A stretch of DNA of 64,000 nt, from the NCBI GenBank assembly GCA_964558665.1, contig CAZLFA010000001.1, positions 52,562 through 116,561 of the forward strand, given 5' to 3'. The stretch's first letter is position 1. The number at the start of each line of letters is the position of its first letter. Of the stretch, positions 23,370-57,620 are shown in pieces. Below the pieces are notes generated by a model. The model was not told where the DNA came from and did no database searches. It saw nothing but the letters and a program-made list of their open reading frames with translations. The DNA comes from an uncultured Syntrophaceae bacterium (lineage in GTDB: Bacteria > Desulfobacterota > Syntrophia > Syntrophales > PHBD01). The translations under genes and the position numbers were made by a program.

Positions 23370-25202
23370 CTACATGAAACTTGCTTCAGGGATGTCGATA
23401 GAGCTGCGGTCGCCGCACTTCATCGACTTCTCATATCCGAAGATATCGGTAACATGATTCATGACATAGAACCTGGCGCTGGCGATTTTGCCCTTGTAGA
23501 AATTGGCATCGAAGTGGTCATCACCCAGTTCTTTGAGCTTCGCGGCCGCCAGGAGAGCCTGGTCGAGCAACAGCATGCCGCAGTAAACTCTCGCGCCTGC
23601 ATGCATGGTACGGGTAGCGAAGAGCTGTTTCATCTGCCTGTCGCCGGTTGTCCAGGCTGCATTCATGTCCACGATATCTTTGAAAGCAACCATGACATCC
23701 GCCATCATTGCGAATTCCGCCGCGAATTCGGCGGTCTTTTTCTTGGCAACGAAGTCGTCGATTTCTGCCACCCACTTCCGGAACGGCGCGCTGTCCTTCA
23801 TGGTGAACTTGCGGCCGGTATAGTCCTGGGCCTGGATGAAGTTCGTGCCTTCCCAGATACCGTAGATCACAACGTCCCGGTACAGCTCCGCCCCGGCATA
23901 CTCTTCCATGAAGCCGTAGCCGCCGTGGCATTGGATCGCCTCCTCGGTTGTGCGCCTGGCCATGTCGGACGCATAGGCTTTGCACAGGGGGTTGTTGATC
24001 GAAAACATGTCGTCATAATAAGCCCTTTCTTCCGGTGTGGCAGCATCCATAGACAGGTCGCGGTAGAGATAGGACTGGTAAATCAACGCCCGGCAGGCCT
24101 CCATAATGGATTTCTGGAACAGCAGCATGCGGCGGACGTCTTCGTGCTCGATGATCCTGACGCTGGGCCCCTTGGGATTGGTGGAGTGCTTGCTCTGCAC
24201 CCGCACCTTCGTATAATCGAGAGCCGCATAATAGGCTGAGCCAATGCATCCCAGGGAGAACAGTCCGGTGTTCAGGCGTTCTTCGTTCATATATGCGAAC
24301 ATCTGCTTCATACCGACACCTTTGCCGTCAACAACCTCTTTTTCGCCTACCATCCAGCCGTAGCAGTTATTGTTCTCACCCATGGCCAGGGTACATGTGG
24401 AAGAACCGTGAATGCCCATTTTGTGCTCAATATTCATGGTAGTTACATCATTCCAGGCACCCACGGAGCCGTCATCGTTGACCCAGAACTTGGGCACCAG
24501 GAAGAGGGAAATGCCGGCGGTGCCTTCTTTGGCGCCCGGGGTCTTGGCCAGCATCAGGTGGATAATGTTTTCCGCCAGGTCATGGTCTCCGGAGGTGATG
24601 AAGCATTTCGTGCCTGTGAGCTTATACTTGCCGGGAGTGTCGGTGGGGAATGCCTTGCTTTGAACCGCGCCGACCTCGGAGCCTGCGCCGGGTTCGGTCA
24701 GGCCCATGGTACCGCACCATTCACCCGATATCATCTTGGGCAGAAACAGGTCCTGCTGCTTTTTGGTGCCATATTCCTGGAGCACGGTGATTGCGCCCTG
24801 GGTCAGACACCAGTACATGACGATCGACGGCGATGCGGCGGTCTGCATTTCCAGGATCGGAGCGTACCAGGTCAGCGGTATTTTGCCTTCGCCGCGGAAA
24901 CCAAACTGCTGTGCTACCGACGCATCCTGGACGGCTTTATAAACTTTCTTGAAAGAGTCCGGTGTGACAACCGCATGTTCATTGCCGCCCACAAACTTCG
25001 CGCCGGGCTCATCGGCATCTTTGTTGGCCGGACACATCACGTCGCGGCAGACTTTATTGTTGACATCGAGAAAATTATCGATGTCGTCAATACCGTAAAA
25101 ATCTTTGTAAGCGTCAAGGGTCAAGAGCTTACCCATGTTGAGCCATTCTTTGATCTGGAACGTGATGTCGCGAGTTTGATACAACCAATTATTATGTGCC
25201 AT
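23370..25202 (-). CDS. Acyl-CoA dehydrogenase (large, about 610 aa, type)
   Basis: MGLTEPGAGS, K.FITSG, EHKMGIHGS.TC, ERL, HGGYGFMEEY, IWEGTN. GGAGG RBS. Confidence 0.95.
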   Translation of the reverse strand: MAHNNWLYQTRDITFQIKEWLNMGKLLTLDAYKDFYGIDDIDNFLDVNNKVCRDVMCPANKDADEPGAKFVGGNEHAVVTPDSFKKVYKAVQDASVAQQFGFRGEGKIPLTWYAPILEMQTAASPSIVMYWCLTQGAITVLQEYGTKKQQDLFLPKMISGEWCGTMGLTEPGAGSEVGAVQSKAFPTDTPGKYKLTGTKCFITSGDHDLAENIIHLMLAKTPGAKEGTAGISLFLVPKFWVNDDGSVGAWNDVTTMNIEHKMGIHGSSTCTLAMGENNNCYGWMVGEKEVVDGKGVGMKQMFAYMNEERLNTGLFSLGCIGSAYYAALDYTKVRVQSKHSTNPKGPSVRIIEHEDVRRMLLFQKSIMEACRALIYQSYLYRDLSMDAATPEERAYYDDMFSINNPLCKAYASDMARRTTEEAIQCHGGYGFMEEYAGAELYRDVVIYGIWEGTNFIQAQDYTGRKFTMKDSAPFRKWVAEIDDFVAKKKTAEFAAEFAMMADVMVAFKDIVDMNAAWTTGDRQMKQLFATRTMHAGARVYCGMLLLDQALLAAAKLKELGDDHFDANFYKGKIASARFYVMNHVTDIFGYEKSMKCGDRSSIDIPEASFM

Positions 25203-25292: not shown

Positions 25293-26075
25293 TTAACAAC
25301 CCTTGAAATTGGCCTTCCTCTTTTCCAGGAAGGCGGTCATGCCTTCCTTCTGGTCGTCGGTGCTGAAGCACTGGGCGCAGCACTCGGTTTCCAGACGATT
25401 AGCGTTGTCCAGCGACAGGTCATAGCCATAATTTATGGCATGTTTGGCCATCTTCAGTGCAAACCCCGGAAGCCTGGCCATCTTGGCGGCAAACTTTTTC
25501 GTTTCCGCCATAAGCTGATCGGCCGGATAAAGACGATTCACCAGTCCTATTTCATAAGCCCTCTGTGCATTGATTTGATCGCCGCCCATTATGAGTTCCT
25601 TGGCCCTTCCAAATCCCACAAGGCGGGCCAGGCGCTGCGTGCCGCCCCAGCCGGGGATCAATCCGATCAGGATCTCGGGCTGTCCGAAACGGGCGGTTTC
25701 AGAGGCGAATCTCATATCGCACGACATGGAGATTTCCGTGCCGCCGCCAAGCGCGAAGCCGTTGACAGCGGCGATTGACGGTTTCGGCATTGTTTCTATA
25801 AGGCGCAGCGTTTCATGCCCCAGCTCCATAAAAGCCAGGGCTTCCTTTGGCCTCAGATTCTGCATCTCTGAAATGTCAGCGCCTGCAACGAAAGACTTAT
25901 CACCAGCGCCCGTCAACACCAGAACCTTGATACTGTCATCGTTCTTGCAAACCGTAGCCGCCTGCATGAGTTCTGTCATGGTTTCGGAGTTCATCGCGTT
26001 GAGAGCTTTTGGCCGGTTGAAAGTCAATAGCGCGACGCCATCCTCGACCGTAAAGAGAATGTTCTTGTAGTCCAT
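25293..26075 (-). CDS. crt: Short-chain enoyl-CoA hydratase (crotonase)
   Basis: FVAGADI, AVNGFALGGG.E, GQPE..GLIPGWGGTQRL.R. Confidence 0.85.
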   Translation of the reverse strand: MDYKNILFTVEDGVALLTFNRPKALNAMNSETMTELMQAATVCKNDDSIKVLVLTGAGDKSFVAGADISEMQNLRPKEALAFMELGHETLRLIETMPKPSIAAVNGFALGGGTEISMSCDMRFASETARFGQPEILIGLIPGWGGTQRLARLVGFGRAKELIMGGDQINAQRAYEIGLVNRLYPADQLMAETKKFAAKMARLPGFALKMAKHAINYGYDLSLDNANRLETECCAQCFSTDDQKEGMTAFLEKRKANFKGC

Positions 26076-26199: not shown

Positions 26200-27489
26200 T
26201 TACGGTTTCTCGAGGATGATGCTCATGCCCTGACCGCCGCCGATGCAGAGAGAGGCGAGCCCGCGCTTGGCGCCTGTTTTGTTCATCTGCATGGCAAGTG
26301 TGTAGGTGATCCTTGCGCCGGTGTTGCCGATGGGGTGACCGATGGAGATACCGCTTCCGTTGAGGTTGCTGCGATTCAGATCGACACCAAGTTCTTTAAT
26401 ACAAGCAAGTGCCTGGACAGCAAAAGCTTCGTTCAGTTCGATCAGATCGATATCCTTCATCGACAGGCCAAGCTTGTTGAAAAGTTTCTTTGTTGCCGGG
26501 ATCGGTCCCAGTCCCATGTATGCCGGATCGACGCCGCCGGAATCATAACCGGTGATCTTGGCCAGAGGCTTCAGACCAAGTTCTTTGGCCTTGTCGCTGC
26601 TCATGACTACAACAGCAGTTGCACCGTCGTTGATGCCCGAGGCGTTGCCCGCTGTAACTGTTCCGGTTTTTTTGAAGACCGGTGGCAGTTTGGCCATCTT
26701 TTCCAGTGTTGTATCCATGGGGCGTTCGTCGACGTTGAACACCTTGGGATCGCCCTTCCTCTGGGGGATGAGAATGGGAACGATTTCGTCCGCTACGGCG
26801 CCGCTGGCAATGGCCGCTCTGGCGCGACGATGGCTCTCATATGCCAGTTTATCCTGCTCTTCCCTGGAAATGCCGTATTTCTCGGCAATGTTTTCCGCCG
26901 TGAAGCCCATGTGGTAACTGTTGAAGATTTCCCAGAGGCCGTCATGAACCATGAGGTCCGTGGCCTGACCGTAGGGCATGTTCATTCTGTAACCCCAGCG
27001 GGCATTGGGCATCGCGTAGGGAACGTTGCTCATGTTTTCCATGCCGCCGGCGACTATGATCTCGGCATCGCCCGCCTTGATGGCCTGTGCCGCCAGGGCA
27101 ATGGCCTTCATTCCCGATGCGCAGACCTTCTGAACGGTAATGACATTGCTTTCTTCAGGCAGACCGGCGAAAATCGCCGCCTGCCGGGGAGGATTCTGGC
27201 CGACTCCGGAAGTCAGGACGTTTCCCATAATGACCTCATCAATGTAAACGGCCTTCAGCGCGCTGTCGTAGTCATAATGCTTCTTCTGAATTTCCGTCAT
27301 ATCGAAATTGCCCAACTGGGCAGGCCGGCATGATTTTATGGCATCCGTGATTGCCGGACGCAGGCCGGCTCTTTTGATCGCCTCTTTGATTACAACTCTA
27401 CCCATCTCCACAACGGAGATTCCCTTTAATGAACCGCCGAATTCTCCGACAGCGGTTCTTGCACCACTTACAATTACTGCATCTCTCAT
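26200..27489 (-). CDS. Acetyl-CoA C-acyltransferase (thiolase)
   Basis: VCASGM, NASGINDGA, NEAFA, GHPIG, CIGGGQG. AGGAG RBS before MRDAVIV. Confidence 0.95.
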   Translation of the reverse strand: MRDAVIVSGARTAVGEFGGSLKGISVVEMGRVVIKEAIKRAGLRPAITDAIKSCRPAQLGNFDMTEIQKKHYDYDSALKAVYIDEVIMGNVLTSGVGQNPPRQAAIFAGLPEESNVITVQKVCASGMKAIALAAQAIKAGDAEIIVAGGMENMSNVPYAMPNARWGYRMNMPYGQATDLMVHDGLWEIFNSYHMGFTAENIAEKYGISREEQDKLAYESHRRARAAIASGAVADEIVPILIPQRKGDPKVFNVDERPMDTTLEKMAKLPPVFKKTGTVTAGNASGINDGATAVVVMSSDKAKELGLKPLAKITGYDSGGVDPAYMGLGPIPATKKLFNKLGLSMKDIDLIELNEAFAVQALACIKELGVDLNRSNLNGSGISIGHPIGNTGARITYTLAMQMNKTGAKRGLASLCIGGGQGMSIILEKP

Positions 27490-27590
27490 CCTGCTATCTC
27501 CTTTCAAAAAAGTTTATGTTTTTTTTAAATTCCTGGTCCTGTTGATGGAGGCCTCGCCAACATCTCATCCGGGAAGTTAAGTGTCGTTTT

Positions 27591-29048
27591 TTATTCATCT
27601 GGAATGGCGTCAACGAACTCCACCTCTCTGGGAATCTTGTATGACGACAGATAGGTGCGGCAGTGCTTCAATATGTCCCTTTCATCCGCTGCGATGTCAG
27701 GGTTTTTGATAATAAAGGCTTTGACGATCTCGCCTCTCATAAGGTCGGGCTGGGATATTATACGAGACTCCTTCACGGCAGGATGCATGCTCAGGACAAT
27801 CTCCACCTCTTTCGGATAGACGTTAAATCCGCTGGTAATAACCATGCGCTTTTTTCTTCCTGTCAGGAAGATGTATCCATCCCGGTCAATGTAACCAAGA
27901 TCACTCGTATGGAGCCAGCCCTCCCTGATGACCTGGGTTGTGGCATCCGGGTCCTTGTAGTAGCCTTTCATGACATTGGGGCCGCGTATGATTAGTTCAC
28001 CGGTTTCTCCGGCGGGCAGATCAACACCTTGGTCGTCAATAATGCGCGCCTCCACACCGGGGATCGGTATTCCTATGGAGCCGGGCTTAAAAGGCATGTC
28101 GAGACGGCTTAAGGCAGTTATGGGAGACGCCTCGGTAAGGCCGTAGCCTTCCAGCAGTTTGACATTGAATTTGGGCGCGAAGACGTTGAATATCTCAACA
28201 TTCATGGCCGAGCCGCCGGTGATGCAGAAGCGCAGAGAACTGATATCATACTGATCAGCCTTGTCATGAAAGAGCATTCCCAGAAAAAGCCTGGGAACGG
28301 CGCAGATGTATGTTACTTTCTCGTTCTGAATGGCGGAGAAGATGGTGTCCAGGGTGAATCTTTCCATGAGCACCGTGCTGGCGCCCGATTTGAGAATGGC
28401 AATCATGTTTGCCGCTGCGCCGAAGGAGTGAAAGAAGGGGATGACGGCCAGCGCCCGGTCGTTTTCATCACCGTCACCCAGGACTTTAAGGAGTGCGGCC
28501 TGGGTCATGAGATTGTTGTGTGTCAGAACGGCGCCCAGAGGTTTGCCCGTAAGTCCCGATGTATAGATCATGACGGCATCGTCGTCACCGTCGATGCCTG
28601 CCGTTTCCAGCTCAAAAGGCCCCTGGTTGACGATGGTCCGGAATTGCGAATCCTCTTTTTCATCCGTCAGGATCAGGTGCTTGCAAAGAGGCAGCCTGTC
28701 TTTGATCTCATCATACCGTCTGGCTGATGATGTTACCGTGATGAAAACCTTTGAGTCGCTGTTATGGAGAAAGTGGTGGAGTTCATAAGGCGTGGACATC
28801 ACGTTGATAGTTACAACAACGGCGCCGATTTTCTGGGCGGCAAAATATGATATGACAAAATCGGGACTGTTGGGAAGCATGATGGATATATGATCACCCT
28901 TGCCTATCCCCAACTTTTTAAGGTGATTTCCCAAGGCGTTGACGGCCCGATTTAATTCTGCATAGGTGATTCTTTTTCCTTCGTGAATGAGAGCAATGCG
29001 TTCCGGAAACCGCGAGCAGCTCTCTTCTATCATGCTCCCTAGGTTCAT
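27591..29048 (-). CDS. Long-chain acyl-CoA synthetase homologue with degenerate catalytic motifs
   Basis: Adenylate-forming fold (GYGLTE, GELIIRGPNVMKGY, NVYP.EVE), but P-loop YTSGLTGKPLG, TSDLG, GRKKR, and it ends at DAIPDE without the terminal GK motif. Confidence 0.8.
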   Translation of the reverse strand: MNLGSMIEESCSRFPERIALIHEGKRITYAELNRAVNALGNHLKKLGIGKGDHISIMLPNSPDFVISYFAAQKIGAVVVTINVMSTPYELHHFLHNSDSKVFITVTSSARRYDEIKDRLPLCKHLILTDEKEDSQFRTIVNQGPFELETAGIDGDDDAVMIYTSGLTGKPLGAVLTHNNLMTQAALLKVLGDGDENDRALAVIPFFHSFGAAANMIAILKSGASTVLMERFTLDTIFSAIQNEKVTYICAVPRLFLGMLFHDKADQYDISSLRFCITGGSAMNVEIFNVFAPKFNVKLLEGYGLTEASPITALSRLDMPFKPGSIGIPIPGVEARIIDDQGVDLPAGETGELIIRGPNVMKGYYKDPDATTQVIREGWLHTSDLGYIDRDGYIFLTGRKKRMVITSGFNVYPKEVEIVLSMHPAVKESRIISQPDLMRGEIVKAFIIKNPDIAADERDILKHCRTYLSSYKIPREVEFVDAIPDE

Positions 29049-29179
29049 CGCATACAGCCCTTTCCTATAATGCCGCCAGTTTATCCCATGAAAGGCATTT
29101 TTTTTCAACAGAATAATTGACTAAAAGGAACCGCTCCCGAGCGAAGATATTAACCTGTTTATGCTTGCTGTTCCGGTTC

Positions 29180-30007
29180 CTAAAATGACCCGCTGCGTAT
29201 AAAATTTATGGCGTTTTTGAAAAGTGCGAGCCCCATGCCCTCTTCCGGCAGTTTTTCCCTTGTCCATCTCGGGTGATTGGTATAGTGCAGGAACGCTTCA
29301 GGATGCGGCATGAGGCCGAAAATCCTTCCCGAACTGTTGCATATTCCGGCAATGGCGTCGATTGACCCGTTGGGGTTAGCCGGATATGACATGGTTGCCG
29401 TTCGGCAGTTGCTGTCGCTATACTGAACGGCCACCAATTTTTCCCGGTGCAACCTCGCCAGACAGCTTTCGTCTTTGGCGACGAATTTGCCTTCGCCGTG
29501 GCGAACGGGAAGATAAATCCCTGCCAGGCCTTTTGTGTAGACGCAGGGGCTGTCCGGATTGGTGGCAAGATATACCCAGCGATCCTCGAACCTTCCGGAA
29601 TCGTTAAAGGTGAGCGTTGTTGTCTGTGAGACATAATCATTATCGAATCCGGGCAATAGGCCCGTCTTAACCATTAGTTGAAACCCGTTGCAGACGCCGA
29701 GAATCAGTTTGCCGGCCCTGATGAAGCGGGCGACCTGATCATAAAGCTTCTCGCTGCTTCCTGCTATCTTCGCATGCAGTATCCTGTTCGCCCCCGCCTT
29801 GGCCGATCCCAGGTCATCGCCGTCCAGAAATCCGCCGGGAAGATTCAGAAAATGATAATCGTCCAGCGTTGTTTCTCCGGACAGGAGAGAACTTATATGA
29901 ATGATGTCAACCACATCGGAACCGGCAAGCCTGCAGGCATGAGCCATCTCTGTTTCGCAGTTGGTTCCATTTCCCGTGATAACTATTGATTTTACTTTTC
30001 CTGGCAT
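29180..30007 (-). CDS. purQ: Phosphoribosylformylglycinamidine synthase subunit PurQ
   Basis: GNGTNCE, PGGF..GD, GVCNGFQ, HGEG, NPNGS, MPHPE. Confidence 0.95.
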   Translation of the reverse strand: MPGKVKSIVITGNGTNCETEMAHACRLAGSDVVDIIHISSLLSGETTLDDYHFLNLPGGFLDGDDLGSAKAGANRILHAKIAGSSEKLYDQVARFIRAGKLILGVCNGFQLMVKTGLLPGFDNDYVSQTTTLTFNDSGRFEDRWVYLATNPDSPCVYTKGLAGIYLPVRHGEGKFVAKDESCLARLHREKLVAVQYSDSNCRTATMSYPANPNGSIDAIAGICNSSGRIFGLMPHPEAFLHYTNHPRWTREKLPEEGMGLALFKNAINFIRSGSF

Positions 30008-30017
30008 CCTTTATTCC

Positions 30018-32996
30018 TTAAAAGTCCAGAGGAGCGAGCCATGCTGCTTTGAGGCCGCTGATGTCGGTTTCTATAATCCGTTCGCCTTTGATGCCCTTTA
30101 TTCTCAGAGTCTGTTCGACTAGGACAGAGCCTATGAATCTGGCGACCGAGCCGGCCATTTCCCTTTCGAAGGCTTTCTGATGGACCGGATCAACCGTGAC
30201 GATGAAACGGCTCTGGGTTTCGGAAAAGAGCAGGTAATCGTTTCTGGTTATTCCGGTGGAAGGCACCAGAGAAAGATCGATATCCATTCCCAAACCGCCT
30301 GCAAATGCAGATTCAGCAAGGGCAACGCCCAGACCGCCGTCCGCGCAGTCGTGGCAGGAGGCGACAAGTCCTTTTTCGATTGCCAGGCTTAGCGCCTGGT
30401 AAAGGATTTTTGCCTTGGCGGCATTTACTTTCGGCACGTTGTTTCCTGTATATCCCCGGCAGGCAAACCACTCTGAGCCGCCCAGTTCCGCGTAGGTCTC
30501 TCCCAGCACATAGATGAGGTGCCCGGCAGCCTTTACATCCATGGTTACCGCCTTGCGGACATCCTTAATCCTGCCTATTGTTGAAAACAGAAGAGTGGGC
30601 GGTATCGATATCCTGATTTCGCCGATCTGGTAATCGTTTTTCATGCTGTCTTTGCCCGATATGCAGGGGACGCCGTATGCTACGGCATAGTCATAAAGGG
30701 CCATATTGGCGCGTACCAGTTGGGCAAGTTTATATTCTCCGTCCGGTGTCTTTTCCGACTGCACGGGATCGCACCAGCAGAAATTGTCCAGGCCCGCAAG
30801 GTGGTCGAGGTTACCGCCGACGGCGATTACGTTTCTCACTGCCTCATCGATGGCGCAGGCAGCCATGTGGTAGGCGTCGATATCGCTGTAACGGGGACAG
30901 ATGCCGTTGGCCACGACCACCCCCTCGAAGGAATCGAGCAGGGGGCGAATGACGGCAGCGTCGCCGGGGCCGTCGTTATTGATGCCGACCAGGGGTTTTA
31001 CAACGCTGCCTCCCTGAACTTCGTGATCATAACGTCGGATAACCGATTCCTTGCTGCAAATGTTCAGGCGGGACAGCATCTCTTTCAGCGCCTTGCCGTA
31101 GTCCGGCGGTTCGGAGAAATCCGGTTCCGGATGAAGGGGTTGCGACCATTTTGCCTTCAATGTCATCTGGGGAAGACCGTCGTGGAGAAAATCCATACCG
31201 AGATATGCAACCGTTCTTTCACCGTAGCGTACATGAAACCATCCGGAGTCTGTGTATGTACCGACCACCGTGGCCTCCACATCCATCTTTTTAGCGAGAG
31301 CAAGGAAGGCATCGATTTGTTGCGGATCAACGGCCAGGGTCATTCTTTCCTGTGATTCAGAGATAAGAATTTCCCATGGTTTCAGCCCGGAATACTTCAG
31401 GGGCGCTTTTTTCAGGTCGATCTCACAGCCGCCCGACAGGCGGGCCGTTTCACCTACCGAGGAGGAAAGGCCGCCGGCGCCGTTGTCCGTAATGCATCTG
31501 TACAGACCGCGATCCCTGGCAATCAGCAGGAAGTCGGTCATTTTCTTCTGCGTAATGGGGTCGCCTATCTGGACGGCTGTGACCGGTGAGCCTTCGTGCA
31601 GTTCCTCGGAAGAGAAGGTTGCGCCGTGGATTCCGTCCTTGCCGATGCGGCCTCCCGTCATGACGATCAGATCACCCGGCACGATTTTCTTTGTATAGGA
31701 AGGCTCGCCGCCGATGGATGAGGGCATAATGCCTCCCGTACCGCAGTAAACAAGCGGCTTTCCCAGATATCTTTCGTCGAATACAATGCAGCCGTTGATC
31801 GTGGGGATACCGCTCTTGTTGCCGCCATGCTCGACGCCCTCTCTAACCCCCTCGTAAATTCTCCGCGGATGCAGAATTCTCTTGGGCAGAGGCTTGTCAT
31901 AGGAGGGCGGCGCGAAGCAGAAGACATCCGTATTGAAAATCAGCTTGGCCCCTTGTCCCGTCCCGAAAGGATCACGGTTGACGCCGACAATGCCTGTCAG
32001 TGCGCCGCCATAGGGATCCAGGGCGGAAGGAGAATTGTGGGTTTCCACTTTAAATACGAGGTTATAGTCTTCATTGAAACTTATTACGCCGGCATTATCC
32101 ACAAATACGGAAAGACAAAAATCACGGATGCCCTTTTGCTGCCTGATCTCCTTCGTAGAGCCTTTGATATAAGTGTCAAAAAGAGAATCGATTCTGCTGC
32201 TCTTCCCGGATTCATCCTCATAGATTATCAGGCTGTTGAATATTTTATGCTTGCAGTGTTCCGACCATGTCTGAGCCAGGCATTCCAGTTCCGCGTCGGT
32301 AATCCTATCCCCCAGCCCAACCAGTTTTCTTGCAGAAACTATTTTTTCATCGAGGAAGTAGCTCCTCAGCGTCTTCATCTCGTCAAGATTGAGGGCCAGC
32401 ACCCTTTCGTTGCTTATGGCAAGAAGCTTGTCATCCGCAACATGAAGGTCTATCTCGTCCGTATCGGGGTTGCTTGATCCAGTGACCCTGGGGACATAAG
32501 GGGTCATGCCTTTTTCGGGATTCCATGTGCTGCCGTCAATAATCTCGAAATGTTCTATGAGTTCATTGGCCAGCAGGTTCGAGGCGATTTTTTCCGCTTC
32601 CGGTTTCCCGATGGAGCCGCTAAGAAGGTACTGCCTTGAAGTATAGACGGAAATCGCCTTGTCCGGGGGAATGTCCAGAAGCAGTAATATTGCCTCACGC
32701 GCCGTCTTGCCGACGTTGTCGGTTACGCCGGGCCTGAATCCTACTTCAACCAGCCATGTAAAGTGTTCAGCCAGTCCTTTGTTGATTTTGAATTCCTGAA
32801 TTATGGGATCGGAAAGGGGGCCCGCGGCAACCGCTTCCAATTCCTGAAGGGACAGGTCACCTTCTATTGTATAAACCTCGATTGTCCTGACTTTGTCGAC
32901 GGAGATTTTAAGATGCTCAATTATCCTGCGCCTGATATTTTCGCCAAGCGCATCTCTGACCCCTGTTTTGAATCCGATTTCAATGCGATTAATCAT
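30018..32996 (-). CDS. purL: Phosphoribosylformylglycinamidine synthase subunit PurL
   Basis: QTWSEHCKHK, KVETHNSPS, DNGAGG, SESQERM, HDCADGG. Confidence 0.95.
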   Translation of the reverse strand: MINRIEIGFKTGVRDALGENIRRRIIEHLKISVDKVRTIEVYTIEGDLSLQELEAVAAGPLSDPIIQEFKINKGLAEHFTWLVEVGFRPGVTDNVGKTAREAILLLLDIPPDKAISVYTSRQYLLSGSIGKPEAEKIASNLLANELIEHFEIIDGSTWNPEKGMTPYVPRVTGSSNPDTDEIDLHVADDKLLAISNERVLALNLDEMKTLRSYFLDEKIVSARKLVGLGDRITDAELECLAQTWSEHCKHKIFNSLIIYEDESGKSSRIDSLFDTYIKGSTKEIRQQKGIRDFCLSVFVDNAGVISFNEDYNLVFKVETHNSPSALDPYGGALTGIVGVNRDPFGTGQGAKLIFNTDVFCFAPPSYDKPLPKRILHPRRIYEGVREGVEHGGNKSGIPTINGCIVFDERYLGKPLVYCGTGGIMPSSIGGEPSYTKKIVPGDLIVMTGGRIGKDGIHGATFSSEELHEGSPVTAVQIGDPITQKKMTDFLLIARDRGLYRCITDNGAGGLSSSVGETARLSGGCEIDLKKAPLKYSGLKPWEILISESQERMTLAVDPQQIDAFLALAKKMDVEATVVGTYTDSGWFHVRYGERTVAYLGMDFLHDGLPQMTLKAKWSQPLHPEPDFSEPPDYGKALKEMLSRLNICSKESVIRRYDHEVQGGSVVKPLVGINNDGPGDAAVIRPLLDSFEGVVVANGICPRYSDIDAYHMAACAIDEAVRNVIAVGGNLDHLAGLDNFCWCDPVQSEKTPDGEYKLAQLVRANMALYDYAVAYGVPCISGKDSMKNDYQIGEIRISIPPTLLFSTIGRIKDVRKAVTMDVKAAGHLIYVLGETYAELGGSEWFACRGYTGNNVPKVNAAKAKILYQALSLAIEKGLVASCHDCADGGLGVALAESAFAGGLGMDIDLSLVPSTGITRNDYLLFSETQSRFIVTVDPVHQKAFEREMAGSVARFIGSVLVEQTLRIKGIKGERIIETDISGLKAAWLAPLDF

Positions 32997-33145
32997 TTTT
33001 TTTCCAGATCTTGTTTGAAGTGGCAAGCTTTCCTGCGAGAGGATGTGACAGGTTACAGTACATCCTTTATTTGCATATCAAAAGGAGATTTATAAAGCAA
33101 CACCGGAATCCGCGAAAGATACAGAAGTCCTCTGTGTCTGTCTTC

Positions 33146-33896: not shown

Positions 33897-35219
33897 TCAG
33901 ACTTTGCATCCCGCGATAAAATGCCGCACATTGACGCGGCGGCTGATGTTGAGCGCCAGCAGTTGAAGGATGTCATTCTGCCCGCTCAGCACTCTTCTGC
34001 CTATGGATGAAAGAGAATAGAACTTTCTGTAAAAATCCATATATCCCTGAAACAATTGATTGACGGTCATTTTCAGCGGTTGAAATACTACATGGTTGGT
34101 GTCGTAATAACGCCAGTTTTTGTGGAGAAGCCGGCCTTCGCTTTCCATGCGGTCGAAGAGCTGAGTTCCCGGAAGAGGGGTAAGGATATAGAAATTAGCA
34201 CCGGCGATACGGTTGCTTACGCAAAAATCATAAATGTTATGAAATGCCTTTGTATCGTCATTGTCCATGCCAAAAATAAAGGACCCGAAGATATGTATTC
34301 CCGTTTTTTGAATGGCGGCAATAGCCTCCTCATATTCGGTTACGCGATTAAGGTTGTGCTTGCCCATGGCCTTGAGATTTTCCCGATTGGTTGTTTCCAT
34401 GCCGACAAAAATCCACTTACAGCCGGCTCGCACAGCCAGGTCCAGCAGCTCCCTGTCTCTTGACAGGCGGAGATCTCCCTGGCCGTACCAGTTGCGCTTC
34501 AGGGGGATCATGGCTTTAAACAGTTCCTTGGCGCGCTCCGGATGACCGAACATATTGTCATCGATAAAGATAATGTCACCCGGGGGCATGGATTTCATTT
34601 CTTCGATCACTTCTTCCACAGGGCGGAAGCGAAATTTGTTTCCCCAGAAATGGGTTACGGAACAGTATTGACAGCGATGGGGACAGCCGCGTGCAGTCTC
34701 CATGACATTGTAGAAGGTGTAAGCCCCCGGCTTCAGCAGATCCAGGCGCGGCCTGGGCAATCCTTCAAGGGTGTGCAGTTTTTCAGATTTGTATATCTTT
34801 TCCATTTTGCCGGACAGAAAGTGGCCCAGCAGGTTGTCCCATGAGTATTCCGCTTCTCCTATTACCAGGGCGTCCGCGTGCGGCGCCGCCTCTTCAGGCA
34901 TGAAGAAGGCATGGATGCCGCCGATGGCTACGGCGGTTCCCTTCCGGCGGAAGGTGTCGGCGATTTCGTAACCGCGCATGGCGGTCGGCGTCATGATGCT
35001 TATGCCGACCAGATCGGCCGCAGCGTTGAAGTCTATGTCCTCCACGTTTTCATCGATGATCCGGACATCGAACCTGTCGTCTGCATGCGCGGCAAGCAAA
35101 GGCAGATTAAGCTGCGGGACCGACGATCTGGTTCGTCTTCTCAGTCCCAGACGATCCTTGTCGGCTGCAGGGTGGATCAGAAGCAGCCCGGGTTTGGAGG
35201 ATCTTTTATTGTCTGTCAA
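33897..35219 (-). CDS. B12-binding domain radical SAM protein
   Basis: N-terminal cobalamin-binding region (IGGIHA), RGCPHRCQYC, DDN, G.ET, FIFG.D.D, TPLPGT. Confidence 0.9.
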   Translation of the reverse strand: MTDNKRSSKPGLLLIHPAADKDRLGLRRRTRSSVPQLNLPLLAAHADDRFDVRIIDENVEDIDFNAAADLVGISIMTPTAMRGYEIADTFRRKGTAVAIGGIHAFFMPEEAAPHADALVIGEAEYSWDNLLGHFLSGKMEKIYKSEKLHTLEGLPRPRLDLLKPGAYTFYNVMETARGCPHRCQYCSVTHFWGNKFRFRPVEEVIEEMKSMPPGDIIFIDDNMFGHPERAKELFKAMIPLKRNWYGQGDLRLSRDRELLDLAVRAGCKWIFVGMETTNRENLKAMGKHNLNRVTEYEEAIAAIQKTGIHIFGSFIFGMDNDDTKAFHNIYDFCVSNRIAGANFYILTPLPGTQLFDRMESEGRLLHKNWRYYDTNHVVFQPLKMTVNQLFQGYMDFYRKFYSLSSIGRRVLSGQNDILQLLALNISRRVNVRHFIAGCKV

Positions 35220-35682: not shown

Positions 35683-35877
35683 TTACTTCCCTAACGGTGA
35701 TTCCTTGCTATCCGAACGTTCCTCAATGATCACACCGTCCTGCATTACGATGACGCCGACGCCTGCCTGAGCCGCCCGCTGCCTGGCTTTCAGCGCTGCG
35801 CGCTTCATAGCTGTCTCGGCATTGACGAAATCAGGATCGCGCTCTTTTTCATTCACAATTATTTTCTGCGCACTCAC
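35683..35877 (-). CDS. Small protein downstream of the zeta-like kinase (putative partner/antitoxin)
   Basis: GTG start overlaps the upstream TGA (GTGA), AGGAG RBS. Contains A...AM.RAA..AR..A...G..V.V..DG.I, typical of such partners. Confidence 0.65.
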   Translation of the reverse strand: MSAQKIIVNEKERDPDFVNAETAMKRAALKARQRAAQAGVGVIVMQDGVIIEERSDSKESPLGK

Positions 35878-36404
35878 AGGTTCACTCCTTCCTCGACAAG
35901 TATGGGCGTTTGCGATGAGTTGTCGTAAATCACCCATTCATCGACAATTGGTTTGTATATGATTTTAAAATTACGCAGACCGGCCGCAAATCTTCGCCGG
36001 ATCGTCTCCTCGGGGACGTTATGGCCGCCTGCCTTGACTCTCTGCTCTACACGGGCAACAGCCAATTCAGGGGAGGCAAGGCGAAGATAAAAAAGTTTTA
36101 CCGTGAAGCCTTCCCTGCGCCACGCCGAAATGTGCCGGGCATAGCCCCGGCCGCTCAGGGTAGTTTCAAAGGCAAAACTATCCCCACGATGTACATGATG
36201 AAAAATTTCCTCCAACATCAGCCGCCCGGCCTTGATTGCGGCCCTCTCCGGGTCGAAGGGGGCAAGACCTGCGGCAATCAAATCCGCGTTGACAAAAATG
36301 GGGCAGTCGGCTTCGTTCGGCAAAAACTCCTCAGCAAACGTGGTCTTCCCTGCGCCGTTTGGCCCGGCAATGATGAGTATTCTGGATCCCTTTATCGTGC
36401 TCAT
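35874..36404 (-). CDS. Zeta-toxin/AAA_33-like P-loop NTPase
   Basis: IIAGPNGAGKTT, VNAD.IA, FAFETTLSG, RV..GGH.VP...I.RR. Confidence 0.85.
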   Translation of the reverse strand: MSTIKGSRILIIAGPNGAGKTTFAEEFLPNEADCPIFVNADLIAAGLAPFDPERAAIKAGRLMLEEIFHHVHRGDSFAFETTLSGRGYARHISAWRREGFTVKLFYLRLASPELAVARVEQRVKAGGHNVPEETIRRRFAAGLRNFKIIYKPIVDEWVIYDNSSQTPILVEEGVNL

Positions 36405-55602: not shown

Positions 55603-57393
55603 TTACTGATTATAAAGAGATTCTATCTGGTCCTGATATTTCTGAAAGACCACGCGCCGCTTCAGTTTCATTGTCTGGGTCAGCGTTCCGTTTTCCAGGC
55701 TGAACGGCTCCTTCAAAAAGAGAAACTTCTTGGGTATCTCGTAACTGGCGTATTTGCCGGTCAATGAACTCTGAATGCCGCTGCCGATCATGGTTTTTAT
55801 GTCGTCCCTGTTGAGAAGTTCGTTGATTTCTGCGGGCAGGTTGTTTTTTTCCGCATATTTTTCAAGAGCGAAAAAGTCGGGTACTACCAGACATGTTGTA
55901 TAAGGGCGATTGTCACCGTAGATGACGGCGTTTTGCACGTAGGGCACCAGGCAGATATCCTCTTCGAGCGAGGAAGGAAATACGAATTTACCGTTTTCCA
56001 GTTTGAACTGCTCCTTGATGCGTCCTGTTATGTAAAGGTAGCCGTCTTTGTCCAGCCTGCCCCGGTCGCCCGTCCTCACACCGCCATCCGGCGTCATAAC
56101 CTCCGCCGTCTGTTCCGGCTTGTTGTGGTAACCCTTCATGACATTGGGGCCGTAAACGACAATTTCGCCATCCGTCGCCCCCTCTTCCACGACCGACTTG
56201 TCTATAACGATCTTCACTTTGTCGATGGCGCGTCCGACGGAGCCGAGGCGATAATCCGGGGGGCCGTTCATGGCAATACCCGGTGATGTCTCCGTCATGC
56301 CGTAGCAGTCATAAACGGGTATGCCGATGTCGAAGAAGAACAGGGCTATTTCCAGGTTCATCATGGCGCTTGCCGTCATGGAGCCTTTGAGGCGGCCGCC
56401 GAACTTGTCCCGGATCTTCTGGAATACTATCTTGTCGGCGATGGCGAATTTAAGGTTGTTCAGAAAAGAACTCTGACCCTTTTCGGCAAGCCGCCGCTTC
56501 TCTTTTGCCGCTTCTACGCCCATGACGAAAAGCGCCTTCGCCAGCCCTCCCTCCTCATTCATCTTTTTCCAGAGGCCGTCATAGATTCGGTTGAAGACAC
56601 GCGGCACGGCAATCAAAAAGGTCGGCCTGATTTTGGACATATCATCAACCAGCGTGTTGATGTTTCCCATAAAACCCATGGAGGCGCCTAGCTGCAGGAA
56701 TGTGTGCTGTTCCCCCAATCCGTAAGTATGCGCCCACGGCAGAAGAGAAAAGGTCCGGTCGTTTTCGTTGAATTCATTATAGAGTTTAACGCGGGCGTGT
56801 GAGTTGCTGGTCCAGTTGGCATGCGTCAGCAGTACGCCCTTCGGGTCGCCGGTCGTGCCCGACGTGTATATCAGCACAGCAACATCATCCGCCTGGGGAT
56901 GTACGGAAGGCACGGGGTTTGACTCGCCGATTTTTTCCATCTCGGCCATGGCGTTTTTGGCGTTGCCCCCCATAAGAATAATCTTTTCCAGCGCCGGTAT
57001 GCGTGAAGGAAAATCCTTTACCTTTTCAAAAATTTCCTCTTTCGATACAAAAAGCAGCTTAACGCCGCTGTCCTTTATAATATACTCCCAGATATGAGGG
57101 AGCTCAACCTCATACATGGGAACAAAGCGGGCGCCCCGTCCCATCGTTGCATAATGGACAACCGCCCAGTCAACGGAGTTATTGGAGATGACGCCTACGA
57201 CATCCTCTTTTTCTATGCCGGCCTTGGCGAGGCCGCCGCGCAGATTGTCCACCCGCCTGCCGAACTCTATGTAGGTGATCCATTCGTAGTCACCGTTATT
57301 GTTTTTCGTGCCGAACAGTTGCCTGTCAGCAAACTTCTTAGCGCTGTTTTCAAGAAATTCCACCAGGTTATCCGGCTTATCCAACTGGTACAT
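55603..57393 (-). CDS. Long-chain-fatty-acid--CoA ligase (FAA1/AMP-binding type)
   Basis: YTSGTTGDPKG, YGMTET, TGD.G, GRIKE..KL.NGK.V, TMKLKR. Confidence 0.9.
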   Translation of the reverse strand: MYQLDKPDNLVEFLENSAKKFADRQLFGTKNNNGDYEWITYIEFGRRVDNLRGGLAKAGIEKEDVVGVISNNSVDWAVVHYATMGRGARFVPMYEVELPHIWEYIIKDSGVKLLFVSKEEIFEKVKDFPSRIPALEKIILMGGNAKNAMAEMEKIGESNPVPSVHPQADDVAVLIYTSGTTGDPKGVLLTHANWTSNSHARVKLYNEFNENDRTFSLLPWAHTYGLGEQHTFLQLGASMGFMGNINTLVDDMSKIRPTFLIAVPRVFNRIYDGLWKKMNEEGGLAKALFVMGVEAAKEKRRLAEKGQSSFLNNLKFAIADKIVFQKIRDKFGGRLKGSMTASAMMNLEIALFFFDIGIPVYDCYGMTETSPGIAMNGPPDYRLGSVGRAIDKVKIVIDKSVVEEGATDGEIVVYGPNVMKGYHNKPEQTAEVMTPDGGVRTGDRGRLDKDGYLYITGRIKEQFKLENGKFVFPSSLEEDICLVPYVQNAVIYGDNRPYTTCLVVPDFFALEKYAEKNNLPAEINELLNRDDIKTMIGSGIQSSLTGKYASYEIPKKFLFLKEPFSLENGTLTQTMKLKRRVVFQKYQDQIESLYNQ

Positions 57394-57620
57394 AAGTTTT
57401 CCTCCCAAAGGTATCCCATGTTGTCTCGAGATGTTCATATTTAATGCCCCGGAGATTATTGGAGATTTTTAGAAGGTTCGTCGATGTTTCAGAAGAAGGT
57501 AGGTGAATTTTCTCTCCGCAGCAAATTATATCGCCATGACGTCTTGCATTATTATGGGATTCTACCCCAAATCGGCGGGAAGGTCACGCAAATTTGAATG
57601 ATTTCCGTGCAGGAATTTTA

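What the first reader, a model, noticed from the sequence alone, without database searches (positions are those of the whole stretch)
27591..29048. Acyl-CoA ligase homologue with multiple catalytic motifs lost: possible pseudoenzyme heading the operon
Seen: the P-loop is YTSGLTGKPLG (canonical TSGTTGxPKG), TGD is TSD, the GRxKD hinge is GRKKR, and the protein stops at EFVDAIPDE. It therefore lacks the terminal GK lysine (A10) needed for adenylation, and I found no GK continuation in any frame past the stop. The window's other ligase (55603-57393) has all the canonical motifs. Several coordinated losses in an otherwise intact ORF at the head of the operon suggest a repurposed acyl/CoA-binding protein, regulator or altered-chemistry enzyme rather than decay.
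Basis: partly seen in the sequence, partly recalled or inferred. Interest (0 to 1): 0.75.

Follow-up and report, generated by a model that had tools for sequence, protein, structure and literature searches.

The report
Conserved acyl-CoA ligase homologue lacking catalytic lysine
The gene is a real, strongly conserved relative of fatty-acid–CoA ligases, found in syntrophic anaerobes, that has lost the lysine loop and changed the phosphate loop needed for the ATP-using first step, so it probably is not an ordinary ligase; its real job is untested.

Summary
It is an intact ANL/AMP-binding protein with P-loop YTSGLTGKPLG, TSD, GRKKR, and a stop where the A10 'PKTxxGK' loop should begin.

It is neither an assembly error nor decay:
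- The sequence is identical in four independent metagenome assemblies.
- More than 228 relatives (Syntrophales, Smithella, Desulfomonilia MAGs) end at the same place.
- dN/dS is 0.06-0.08 in both domains.
- No A10 is encoded downstream in 18 loci.

The protein belongs to a Desulfobacterota-specific superclade (NJ 200/200) with a hydrophobic P-loop (Thr→Leu, Lys→Leu/Val). Inside it, A10 was deleted at least twice independently, is K→R in some members and is kept in a 495-aa sister group. The AMP, ribose, acyl and pantetheine motifs (A4-A8) stay nearly invariant.

In Syntrophales the gene is the first gene of a short-chain β-oxidation operon.

Best reading (~0.4): it cannot do canonical adenylation and works only in the thioester-state geometry on acyl-CoA/AMP. 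Rivals are a compensated single-conformation ligase (~0.3) and a non-catalytic binder or regulator (~0.2).

TSD and the hinge change alone are weak evidence. It is a new variant of a known superfamily, and its function is untested.

The parts
27591..29048 (-). ANL-superfamily (AMP-binding) gene, 485 aa plus a TAA stop. It is a truncated, hydrophobic-P-loop variant ('ANL*').
   Evidence: AF2 model pLDDT 90.5, pTM 0.92. Foldseek TM 0.91-0.93 to solved ANL enzymes.
28533..28565 (-). A3 / P-loop YTSGLTGKPLG (residues 162-172). Canonical Thr→Leu166 and Lys→Leu171.
   Evidence: In the clade L166 is 98% conserved and L171 87% (otherwise V/M/R). All 67 nearest full-length relatives have T and K. The loop itself is still nearly invariant.
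28275..28298 (-). VPRLFLGM (residues 251-258). Clade-specific T253R, M254L and Y255F compared with the canonical VPTMY.
   Evidence: Its position near the acyl pocket is inferred from memory of luciferase and 4CL structures and was not computed.
28122..28151 (-). A5 EGYGLTEASP (residues 300-309), the retained adenine/Mg/acyl-AMP motif.
   Evidence: G301, Y302, G303, L304, T305, E306 and P309 are invariant in 60 family members.
27900..27917 (-). A7 WLHTSD (residues 378-383). The ribose-binding Asp383 is retained; Gly→Ser is variable.
   Evidence: D383 is invariant. TGD and TSD both occur among orthologues.
27813..27860 (-). A8 GRKKRMVITSGFNVYP (residues 397-412). Arg398 and the hairpin are retained; the hinge Asp is replaced by Arg401.
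   Evidence: R401 is 95% conserved in the clade, against D in 91% of full-length relatives. N409, Y411 and P412 are invariant. The sister groups that keep an A10 K or R also keep the hinge Asp.
27591..27641 (-). C-terminal end YKIPREVEFVDAIPDE plus TAA. The protein stops where the A10 loop (PKTxxGK) would start.
   Evidence: In 228 clade members the tail after YKxPRxxxF is 3-19 residues (mode 6), is rich in Glu and Asp, and never contains GK.
27490..27590 (-). Intergenic spacer between ANL* and the thiolase gene. It holds no hidden A10 exon.
   Evidence: Three-frame translation in the window and 17 loci. The stop codon varies (TAA, TAG, TGA) among orthologues.
26200..27489 (-). Acetoacetyl-CoA-type thiolase, 429 aa. 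Catalytic Cys/His/Cys are present. It carries a 36-aa insertion at residues 47-82 (window 27244-27351).
   Evidence: It lies downstream of ANL* in L001-L013, L086 and L089 at 70-93% identity.
25293..26075 (-). Short-chain enoyl-CoA hydratase (crotonase).
   Evidence: PRK05809, E 7e-103.
23370..25202 (-). Acyl-CoA dehydrogenase, 610 aa, with an Acyl-CoA_dh_C domain.
   Evidence: In other genomes a 382-aa ACAD occupies this place, and L092 has both.
29049..29179 (-). 131-nt spacer between purQ and ANL*, the likely operon start.
   Evidence: A weak terminator-like hairpin lies at 29144-29131. In L004, L005 and L089 the upstream gene is on the other strand.

Best explanation
ANL* is a functional, selectively maintained paralogue of LcfB/FadD-type acyl-CoA synthetases that has abandoned the canonical ATP-dependent adenylation half-reaction.

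What changed: the residues that handle the beta/gamma-phosphates and the leaving PPi (P-loop Thr and Lys) are replaced by conserved hydrophobic residues. The A10 lysine loop, which enters the active site only in the adenylate-forming conformation, is deleted. The hinge Asp is replaced by Arg.

What stayed: everything needed to hold AMP or acyl-AMP (A4, A5, the A7 Asp, the A8 Arg) and to present a pantetheine thiol (the A8 hairpin GFNVYP) is nearly invariant.

Proposed mechanism: the protein most likely operates only in the second, thioester-state geometry. There it binds acyl-CoA plus AMP and catalyses, at most, the reversible step acyl-CoA + AMP <-> acyl-AMP + CoA, or an acyl transfer built on that step. 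In Syntrophales it does this as the first product of a short-chain beta-oxidation operon (thiolase, crotonase, HADH, ACAD).

Shown: the motif changes, their conservation, purifying selection, recurrent loss of A10, and synteny.

Inferred: inability to adenylate from ATP, and retained AMP/CoA binding.

Speculative: which reaction it actually runs.
For: - Motifs and truncation verified.
- 131 orthologues, and 228, all lack A10.
- The only positions conserved in both groups but different from 67 nearest full-length relatives cluster in A3 (T166L, K171L), A8 (D397G, D401R, G406S), residues 253-258 and the deleted TGKILRxxL.
- A4, A5, A7 Asp, A8 Arg and the hairpin are invariant or nearly so.
- dN/dS is 0.06-0.08 overall and in each domain.
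- The hydrophobic-P-loop superclade is monophyletic at 200/200. Truncated proteins are not monophyletic (4/200), because the P0221 group is sister to a 495-aa group that keeps GK (180/200). So A10 was lost at least twice after the P-loop change, and it is K→R in P0535, P0504 and P0529.
- All four superclade members scanned (the window protein plus one representative each of the B, D and X groups) score below NCBIfam PRK06187's curated cut-off (405-444 against 476). The nearest canonical relative passes at 529.
- The gene is first in the operon ANL*-thiolase(s)-HADH-ECH-ACAD.
- The AF2 model sits in the thioester-forming conformation: 5BSR TM 0.91 / rmsd 2.9 and 4G37 0.91 / 2.8, against 5BSM 0.77 / 10.5 and 4G36 0.78 / 10.4.
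- Literature: the P-loop and the A10 'K-loop' are described as strictly required and highly conserved across ANL enzymes (bioRxiv 10.64898/2026.07.06.736331). The hinge is usually Asp (PMC8643619).
Against: - There is no biochemical data for any member.
- The gene sits exactly where an activating ligase (FadD) sits in beta-oxidation operons. That is the simplest argument that it still makes acyl-CoA.
- The P-loop remains glycine-rich and strongly conserved, so it may still bind phosphate.
- The 495-aa sister group keeps a mostly conserved GK despite the same type of P-loop, so the P-loop change alone need not abolish adenylation.
- The AF2 conformation is not discriminating. The control model of the GK-bearing sister group (pLDDT 78) is also predicted in the thioester state.
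- No physiological need for an isolated second half-reaction is established.
- Neighbourhoods differ in Smithella and in the sister groups.
Confidence: 0.4

Rival explanations
1. It is still an ATP-dependent acyl-CoA synthetase that runs both half-reactions in one (thioester-like) conformation. A surrogate basic residue, most plausibly the clade-specific hinge Arg401 or the neighbouring Lys399/Lys400, replaces the A10 lysine. The remodelled P-loop still binds PPi through backbone amides and Lys/Arg169.
For: - The gene occupies the FadD position at the head of beta-oxidation operons.
- All AMP, acyl and CoA motifs are conserved, and the P-loop glycines and Thr163/Thr167 are nearly invariant.
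- Covariation: the main truncated clade has hinge Arg (GRKKR/GLKKR), while the sister groups that keep an A10 Lys or Arg keep the hinge Asp (GLKKD, GHKKD).
- From general knowledge, the second P-loop Lys is not universal in active ANL enzymes (PaaK, FAALs).
Against: - No active ANL enzyme without an A10 lysine is known to me or was found in the literature searches.
- The truncated P0221 group has His, Asp or Asn, not Arg, at the hinge, so the compensation is not general.
- Thr→Leu at the fourth P-loop position is not seen in any of the 67 nearest canonical relatives.
- Recurrent loss and K→R substitution of A10 indicate relaxed need for that residue across the superclade.
Confidence: 0.3
2. 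It is a non-catalytic acyl-CoA/AMP-binding protein (a true pseudoenzyme). It would act as a sensor or regulator of the operon, or as a scaffold or chaperone for the co-encoded thiolase.
For: - Two catalytic motifs are lost while the fold is kept.
- Synteny with a highly conserved thiolase that carries a lineage-specific 36-aa insertion is tight.
- Sister-group genes lie next to HisKA and sigma-54 response-regulator genes (L095, L097).
Against: - Near-invariance of catalytic-site residues (GYGLTE, the A7 Asp, the A8 Arg and hairpin) and a dN/dS as low as a housekeeping enzyme's are more than ligand binding or scaffolding usually requires.
- The insertion-bearing thiolase operon exists without ANL* in a Syntrophus sp., and Smithella ANL* genes have no thiolase neighbour.
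- There is no DNA-binding or signalling domain.
Confidence: 0.2
3. It is a pseudogene, a local truncation or an assembly or sequencing error of an ordinary ligase.
For: Only the missing C-terminal motif itself.
Against: - The sequence is identical in four independent metagenome assemblies.
- More than 200 orthologues share the same end point.
- dN/dS is 0.06-0.08.
- No continuation exists in any frame.
- Where the gene really was lost (Syntrophus sp. L092-L094), only a 25-aa relic remains.
Confidence: 0.01

Closest known systems
LcfB/YhfL-FadD-type medium/long-chain acyl-CoA synthetases (NCBIfam PRK06187; nearest relatives in Chloroflexota, Bacillaceae and others, 37-42% identity)
   Same: - Two-domain ANL fold.
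- Motifs A1, A2 and A4-A7, plus the A8 hairpin GFNVYP.
- Operon position ahead of beta-oxidation genes.

   Different: - P-loop TSGTTGxPKG has become T(A/S)GLTG(K/R)P(L/V)G.
- DRKKD has become GRKKR.
- The whole A10 segment (PKTATGKILKRELR) is absent.
- It scores 444, under the 476-bit family cut-off, while a canonical relative scores 529.

Fatty acyl-AMP ligases (FAAL; mycobacterial FadD28/FadD32 type)
   Same: Both are natural ANL variants that appear to have kept one half-reaction and given up the other.
   Different: FAALs keep adenylation, including the A10 Lys. An N-domain insertion blocks the CoA/thioester step (general knowledge). ANL* shows the mirror-image pattern: the adenylation determinants are lost and the thioester-state determinants are kept. 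ANL* has no FAAL insertion (alignment).
A10-lysine mutants or acetylated forms of Acs/PrpE (e.g. PrpE K592, Acs K609)
   Same: Loss or blocking of the A10 lysine abolishes acyl-AMP synthesis but leaves conversion of acyl-AMP to acyl-CoA. This is established knowledge, cited from memory (Horswill & Escalante-Semerena 2002; Starai et al. 2002). It is the behaviour predicted for ANL*.
   Different: Those are engineered or regulatory states of normal enzymes. Here the state is genetically fixed, ancient and combined with a remodelled P-loop.
AMP-forming acetyl-CoA synthetase run in reverse in Syntrophus aciditrophicus (SaAcs1)
   Same: It is an ANL enzyme of the same bacterial order that starts from acyl-CoA + AMP (PMC4992975; PMC13404658).
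   Different: SaAcs1 is a full-length Acs crystallised in the adenylation conformation, and it needs PPi to make ATP. ANL* lacks the PPi-handling and A10 elements, so it cannot complete that reaction by the known route.

Membership tests
ANL superfamily (Pfam AMP-binding PF00501 + AMP-binding_C PF13193) | [quoted passage not shown] | tested here: met
   PF00501 E 5.4e-97 and PF13193 E 8.5e-13. AF2 pLDDT 90.5. Foldseek TM 0.91-0.93 to 4CL, ACSM2A and luciferase.
ANL superfamily | A3 P-loop [ST][ST]G[ST][ST]GxPKG | tested here: not met
   The sequence is TSGLTGKPLG. Leu166 and Leu171 are fixed in the clade, and T and K are fixed in 67 canonical relatives.
ANL superfamily | A5 GYGxTE and the A7 (Y/H)TGD aspartate, which bind AMP and ribose | tested here: met
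   GYGLTE and D383 are invariant in 60 members. The Gly before the Asp is Ser here and varies between G and S.
ANL superfamily | A8 GRxKD hinge plus hairpin | tested here: inconclusive
   Arg398 and the GFNVYP hairpin are retained. The hinge Asp is replaced by Arg401. The hinge Asp is usual but not universal (the window's other ligase has GRIKE).
ANL superfamily | A10 PxxxxGK catalytic lysine | tested here: not met
   The protein ends 2 residues after the alignable region. The Pfam C-domain profile is matched only to position 70 of 76. No A10 is found downstream in 18 loci.
Long-chain-fatty-acid--CoA ligase (NCBIfam PRK06187; EC 6.2.1.3), the name given by databases | Score at or above the curated family cut-off (476 bits) | tested here: not met
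   The score is 444 bits. Superclade members P0221, P0537 and P0535 score 424, 405 and 434, and the canonical relative L019 scores 529.
Long-chain-fatty-acid--CoA ligase | ATP-dependent acyl-AMP formation followed by CoA thioesterification | not testable with these tools
   This needs ATP-PPi exchange and acyl-CoA formation assays.
Fatty acyl-AMP ligase (FAAL) | N-domain insertion blocking domain rotation, with A10 Lys retained | tested here: not met
   There is no extra insertion relative to canonical relatives, and A10 is absent.
Pseudoenzyme (conserved homologue lacking catalytic residues) | Key catalytic residues are missing, yet the protein is under purifying selection | tested here: met
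   A10 Lys and the P-loop Thr and Lys are missing. dN/dS is 0.06-0.08.
Pseudoenzyme | Absence of any catalytic activity | not testable with these tools
   Retention of the remaining active-site motifs makes residual or altered catalysis plausible.

The most novel reading that the evidence does not exclude
The hydrophobic-P-loop ANL superclade is an ATP-independent acyl-transfer enzyme that uses AMP as a catalytic cofactor.

Proposed steps: acyl-CoA + AMP gives enzyme-bound acyl-AMP + CoA. The acyl group is then passed to another thiol or acceptor, or a free acid displaces the first acid at the phosphate, in the site where PPi used to bind and which is now hydrophobic.

The net result would be a CoA-transferase-like activation of fatty acids at no ATP cost on an ANL scaffold. 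That would be an energy-saving solution for syntrophs living at the thermodynamic limit.
Probability: 0.1. Interest if true: 0.85.

Novelty: new variant of a known kind. Interest (0 to 1): 0.62.

Why it matters
The A10 lysine and the P-loop are treated as strictly required in adenylate-forming enzymes. Here a large natural clade is under strong purifying selection, has lost the lysine at least twice, and carries a conserved hydrophobic P-loop.

Either interpretation would be informative:
- If it has lost adenylation, it would be the mirror image of the fatty acyl-AMP ligases.
- If it still ligates, it would show that domain alternation and the A10 lysine are dispensable.

The genes are currently annotated as 'long-chain-fatty-acid--CoA ligase'. 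In metabolic reconstructions of syntrophic fatty-acid and aromatic degraders in digesters and sediments, that label may mis-assign an ATP cost to substrate activation in organisms whose energy budget is marginal.

The proteins are small, soluble-looking and easy to test.

Tried and rejected
1. Hidden C-terminus by readthrough, frameshift or a split gene. Rejected: no A10-like peptide in any frame in 18 loci, variable stop codons, and a thiolase start 3 nt after the stop in L005.
2. Assembly error. Rejected by independent assemblies.
3. Whole-library representative search. It was swamped by multi-domain NRPS proteins and gave only P0123 and P0221 as useful hits. P0221 later opened up the superclade.
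4. The thiolase's 36-aa insertion as a docking site co-evolved with ANL*. Not supported: the insertion is Syntrophales-wide, and the same thiolase operon occurs without ANL*.
5. The AF2 conformation as evidence for a locked thioester state. Weakened: the control model of the GK-bearing sister group adopts the same state, and that model is of lower quality.
6. TGD→TSD as a functional loss. Rejected: G and S alternate among orthologues.
7. Arg253 as a lysine surrogate. Judged unlikely from its expected position near the distal acyl pocket. This rests on memory of luciferase and 4CL structures, and P0221 has Leu there.
8. Rfam scan of the window: no hits.
9. Literature searches for natural ANL proteins without A10, or ANL pseudoenzymes: nothing found in the held library.
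10. Transcription evidence: only a few 151-nt metatranscriptome contigs, which is too thin to use.
11. No cultured organism carrying the gene was identified.
Full report
**1. The observation**

The feature is an ORF on the minus strand, at 27591-29048 counting from the ATG. The ORF listing extends it to a TTG at 29108, but every orthologue starts at the MNLG/MSLG position. Its 485-aa product is an AMP-binding (ANL) protein. PF00501 matches at E 5e-97. PF13193 is matched only to profile position 70 of 76.

Solved ligases such as feruloyl-CoA synthetase 8WEV, 4CL 3A9U, FadD13 and luciferase align up to residue 483 and then continue with their own PKTxxGK loop, which this protein lacks.

The window's other ligase (ORF 55603-57438, minus strand) has a canonical P-loop, TGD and a terminal lysine. 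Its hinge is GRIKE, not GRxKD.

**2. Artefact and decay are excluded**

- Contigs from four independent public metagenome runs (wastewater, biogas fermenter and others) reproduce the gene and its stop with no indel. There is one synonymous-scale SNP elsewhere.
- The best 120 database relatives are 61-100% identical and 478-527 aa long. All end a few residues after the EF(V) strand.
- Thirteen GTDB species representatives do the same (Syntrophaceae, Syntrophales, Smithella/Smithellaceae, Desulfomonilia; 51-64% identity). The next-best genomes (37-42% identity; Chloroflexota, Bacillaceae, Myxococcota and others) all carry TSGTTGxPKG, DRKKD and LPKTATGKILKRELR.
- Three-frame translation downstream of the stop finds no A10-like peptide in the window or in 17 orthologous loci. 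The stop codon varies (TAA, TAG, TGA), and in L005 the thiolase gene starts 3 nt after the stop.
- Nei-Gojobori dN/dS against orthologues at 94%, 87% and 71% identity is 0.075, 0.076 and 0.056. Values are similar for the N-terminal domain and the shortened C-terminal domain.

**3. What distinguishes the clade**

I compared 60 family members with the 67 nearest full-length relatives. Positions conserved at 85% or more in both groups but different between them fall into a few places:
- The P-loop: T166L and K171L, plus two flanking hydrophobic swaps.
- VPTMY→VPRLF at residues 253-255.
- A8: D397G, hinge D401R and G406S.
- The deleted TGKILRxxL segment.

By contrast, several elements are invariant or nearly so: the A4 His207, A5 G301-E306 (GYGLTE), A6, the A7 Asp383, the A8 Arg398/Lys400 and the hairpin N409/Y411/P412. 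The altered P-loop itself is still strongly constrained (T163, G165, L166, T167, G168, P170 and G172 at 90% or more). This is a new constraint, not relaxation.

TGD versus TSD alternates among orthologues and carries no weight.

**4. A wider superclade and recurrent loss of A10**

Searching with the most divergent truncated member, P0221 (44% identity; P-loop YTSAMNGTPLG), revealed three further groups:
- The P0221 group, truncated, with hinge GRKK(H/D/N).
- A group of about 495 aa, including Desulfomonilaceae MAGs. Its P-loop is FTAGLLGRALG and its hinge is GLKKD. Its short C-terminus, ...EIVRDxHGKPxxW, keeps an A10-like Gly-Lys in most members and has Gly-Arg in P0504 and P0529.
- P0535, 501 aa, with YTAGLCGRSMG, GHKKD and ...ELPKDSGGRVLKEEL, that is A10 Lys→Arg.

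I built neighbour-joining trees on columns up to residue 480, so the tail cannot drive the result, with 40 canonical outgroups:

| Grouping | Bootstrap support |
|---|---|
| Hydrophobic-P-loop superclade | 200/200 |
| Main truncated clade, including Smithella | 199/200 |
| P0221 group + 495-aa group as sisters | 180/200 |
| All truncated proteins monophyletic | 4/200 |

An earlier test of 64 truncated sequences against 67 canonical ones gave 100/100.

So the P-loop remodelling came first. A10 was then deleted at least twice independently and degraded to Arg in other branches. That is the signature of a residue that has become dispensable.

All four superclade members scanned score below the curated cut-off of NCBIfam PRK06187 (405-444 against 476). 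The nearest canonical relative scores 529.

**5. Structure**

The AF2 model built from the family alignment is confident (pLDDT 90.5, pTM 0.92). It superposes on ANL structures in the second, thioester-forming conformation and not on adenylate-forming states of the same enzymes:

| Structure | State | TM | rmsd (Å) |
|---|---|---|---|
| 4CL + AMP + CoA, 5BSR | thioester-forming | 0.91 | 2.9 |
| Cross-linked luciferase, 4G37 | second conformation | 0.91 | 2.8 |
| MenE ternary complex, 5X8F | thioester-forming | 0.87 | 2.6 |
| ACSM2A, 3B7W | thioester-forming | 0.93 | 2.8 |
| 4CL + MgATP, 5BSM | adenylate-forming | 0.77 | 10.5 |
| Luciferase, 4G36 | adenylate-forming | 0.78 | 10.4 |
| MatB-ATP, 4FUT | adenylate-forming | 0.77 | 10.7 |

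As a control I modelled a GK-bearing 495-aa relative (pLDDT 78, pTM 0.84). It also comes out in the thioester state. The conformer choice is therefore compatible with the hypothesis but not discriminating.

**6. Genomic context**

In the window the order on the minus strand is purL(-purS fusion), purQ, a 131-nt spacer, ANL*, thiolase, crotonase, a 610-aa ACAD and a GDSL hydrolase.

The ANL*-thiolase pair, followed by ECH, HADH and ACAD genes, recurs in L001-L013, L086 and L089. The fullest form is ANL*-thiolase453-thiolase429-HADH-ECH-ACAD. Where the upstream gene is divergent (L004, L005, L089), ANL* is clearly the first gene of the operon.

The thiolase is a close relative of the Clostridium acetobutylicum acetoacetyl-CoA thiolase (4N44). 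Its catalytic Cys/His/Cys are intact, and it has an exact 36-aa insertion seen in no solved structure. It is 79-93% identical across Syntrophales.

The link is not obligatory:
- A Syntrophus sp. carries the same operon without ANL*. Only a 25-aa relic of the P-loop region remains in the upstream spacer (tblastn E 0.007).
- Smithella ANL* genes sit beside patatin-like, TIM-barrel and FAA-hydrolase genes.
- The sister groups have unrelated neighbours. Two of these neighbourhoods include HisKA and sigma-54 regulator genes.

**7. Interpretation**

The pattern is specific. What the ATP→acyl-AMP + PPi step needs has gone, namely the P-loop hydroxyl and lysine and the A10 lysine. What the acyl-AMP/CoA step needs has stayed.

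The literature treats the P-loop and the 'K-loop' as strictly required and conserved (bioRxiv 10.64898/2026.07.06.736331). The hinge is usually Asp (PMC8643619). From established work cited from memory, A10-lysine mutants or acetylated forms of PrpE and Acs lose adenylation but still convert acyl-AMP to acyl-CoA.

I therefore rank the explanations as follows:
- First (about 0.4): ANL* cannot adenylate canonically and works only in the thioester-state geometry on acyl-CoA plus AMP.
- Second (about 0.3): a compensated, single-conformation ligase. This is favoured by its FadD-like operon position, and by the covariation between hinge Arg and A10 loss in the main clade. The P0221 group breaks that covariation.
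- Third (about 0.2): a non-catalytic binder or regulator. The near-invariant active-site motifs disfavour this.
- Decay or artefact is excluded.

The most novel reading not excluded is an AMP-cofactor, ATP-independent acyl/CoA transferase (about 0.1). It would fit the hydrophobic replacement of the PPi site and the energy economy of syntrophs. Syntrophs are already known to run an ANL enzyme backwards (PMC4992975, PMC13404658).

**8. Novelty and verdict**

No description of natural ANL proteins lacking A10, or of ANL pseudoenzymes, was found in the searchable library. Databases name these proteins 'long-chain fatty acid--CoA ligase' or 'AMP-binding protein'.

This is a new variant of a known superfamily. 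It is real, ancient within Desulfobacterota (Syntrophia and Desulfomonilia) and functionally unassigned.

Noticed in passing
window 27244-27351 (-), inside the thiolase gene 26200-27489: The thiolase carries an exact 36-aa insertion (residues 47-82, RPAITDAIKSCRPAQLGNFDMTEIQKKHYDYDSALKAV) relative to C. acetobutylicum thiolase 4N44. No solved thiolase has it. The insertion-bearing thiolase is 79-93% conserved across Syntrophales.
   Followed up: partly
L093:3289-3363 (also L092 and L094, 3292-3363): In a Syntrophus sp. the thiolase-thiolase-HADH-ECH-ACAD operon lacks ANL*. The upstream spacer still encodes a 25-aa relic of the ANL* P-loop region (…GDDPAVMRHTSARTGR…; tblastn E 0.007). This suggests recent gene loss by decay.
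   Followed up: partly
L095:7592-10693 and L097:2512-6014: Sister-group ANL genes (the 495-aa GK-bearing type, and P0535) lie next to HisKA sensor kinase and sigma-54 response-regulator genes. In L097 the regulator's end overlaps the ANL start. This may be a regulatory link or a coincidence.
   Followed up: no
window 30018-33026 (-): PurL is 1002 aa, with an N-terminal PurS-like domain (Pfam PurS at residues 14-81) and the FGAR-AT linker. It looks like a PurS-PurL fusion followed by a separate PurQ (29180-30007). The same 992-aa form is found in L001 and L002.
   Followed up: no
window 23370-25202 (-): The ACAD of the operon is a 610-aa form with an Acyl-CoA_dh_C / ACOX-like C-terminal extension. 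Related genomes have a 382-aa ACAD at this position, and L092 has both in tandem.
   Followed up: no
window 28379: A T>C polymorphism in one metagenome (X2) changes Ser223 to Gly (SGASTV to SGAGTV). Database protein P0001 carries the Gly allele.
   Followed up: partly
L014:4145-9060 and L015:7641-10346: Smithella ANL* genes are not next to a thiolase. They lie beside a patatin-like phospholipase, a xylose-isomerase-like TIM-barrel protein and an FAA-hydrolase-family protein. This hints at a lipid-related but different pathway context.
   Followed up: partly
window 33897-35219 (-) and 35874-36404 (-): Upstream of the pur genes there is a B12-binding radical SAM protein (440 aa, with a DUF4070 tail) and a small Zeta-toxin/AAA_33-like kinase ORF (176 aa). 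Neither has a clear partner gene.
   Followed up: no
L004:17326-17464 and L005:12262-13950: In some Syntrophales genomes a full-length (562-564 aa) AMP-binding ligase gene lies within a few kb of the ANL*-thiolase cluster, on the opposite strand. A canonical activating enzyme may therefore be available nearby.
   Followed up: no
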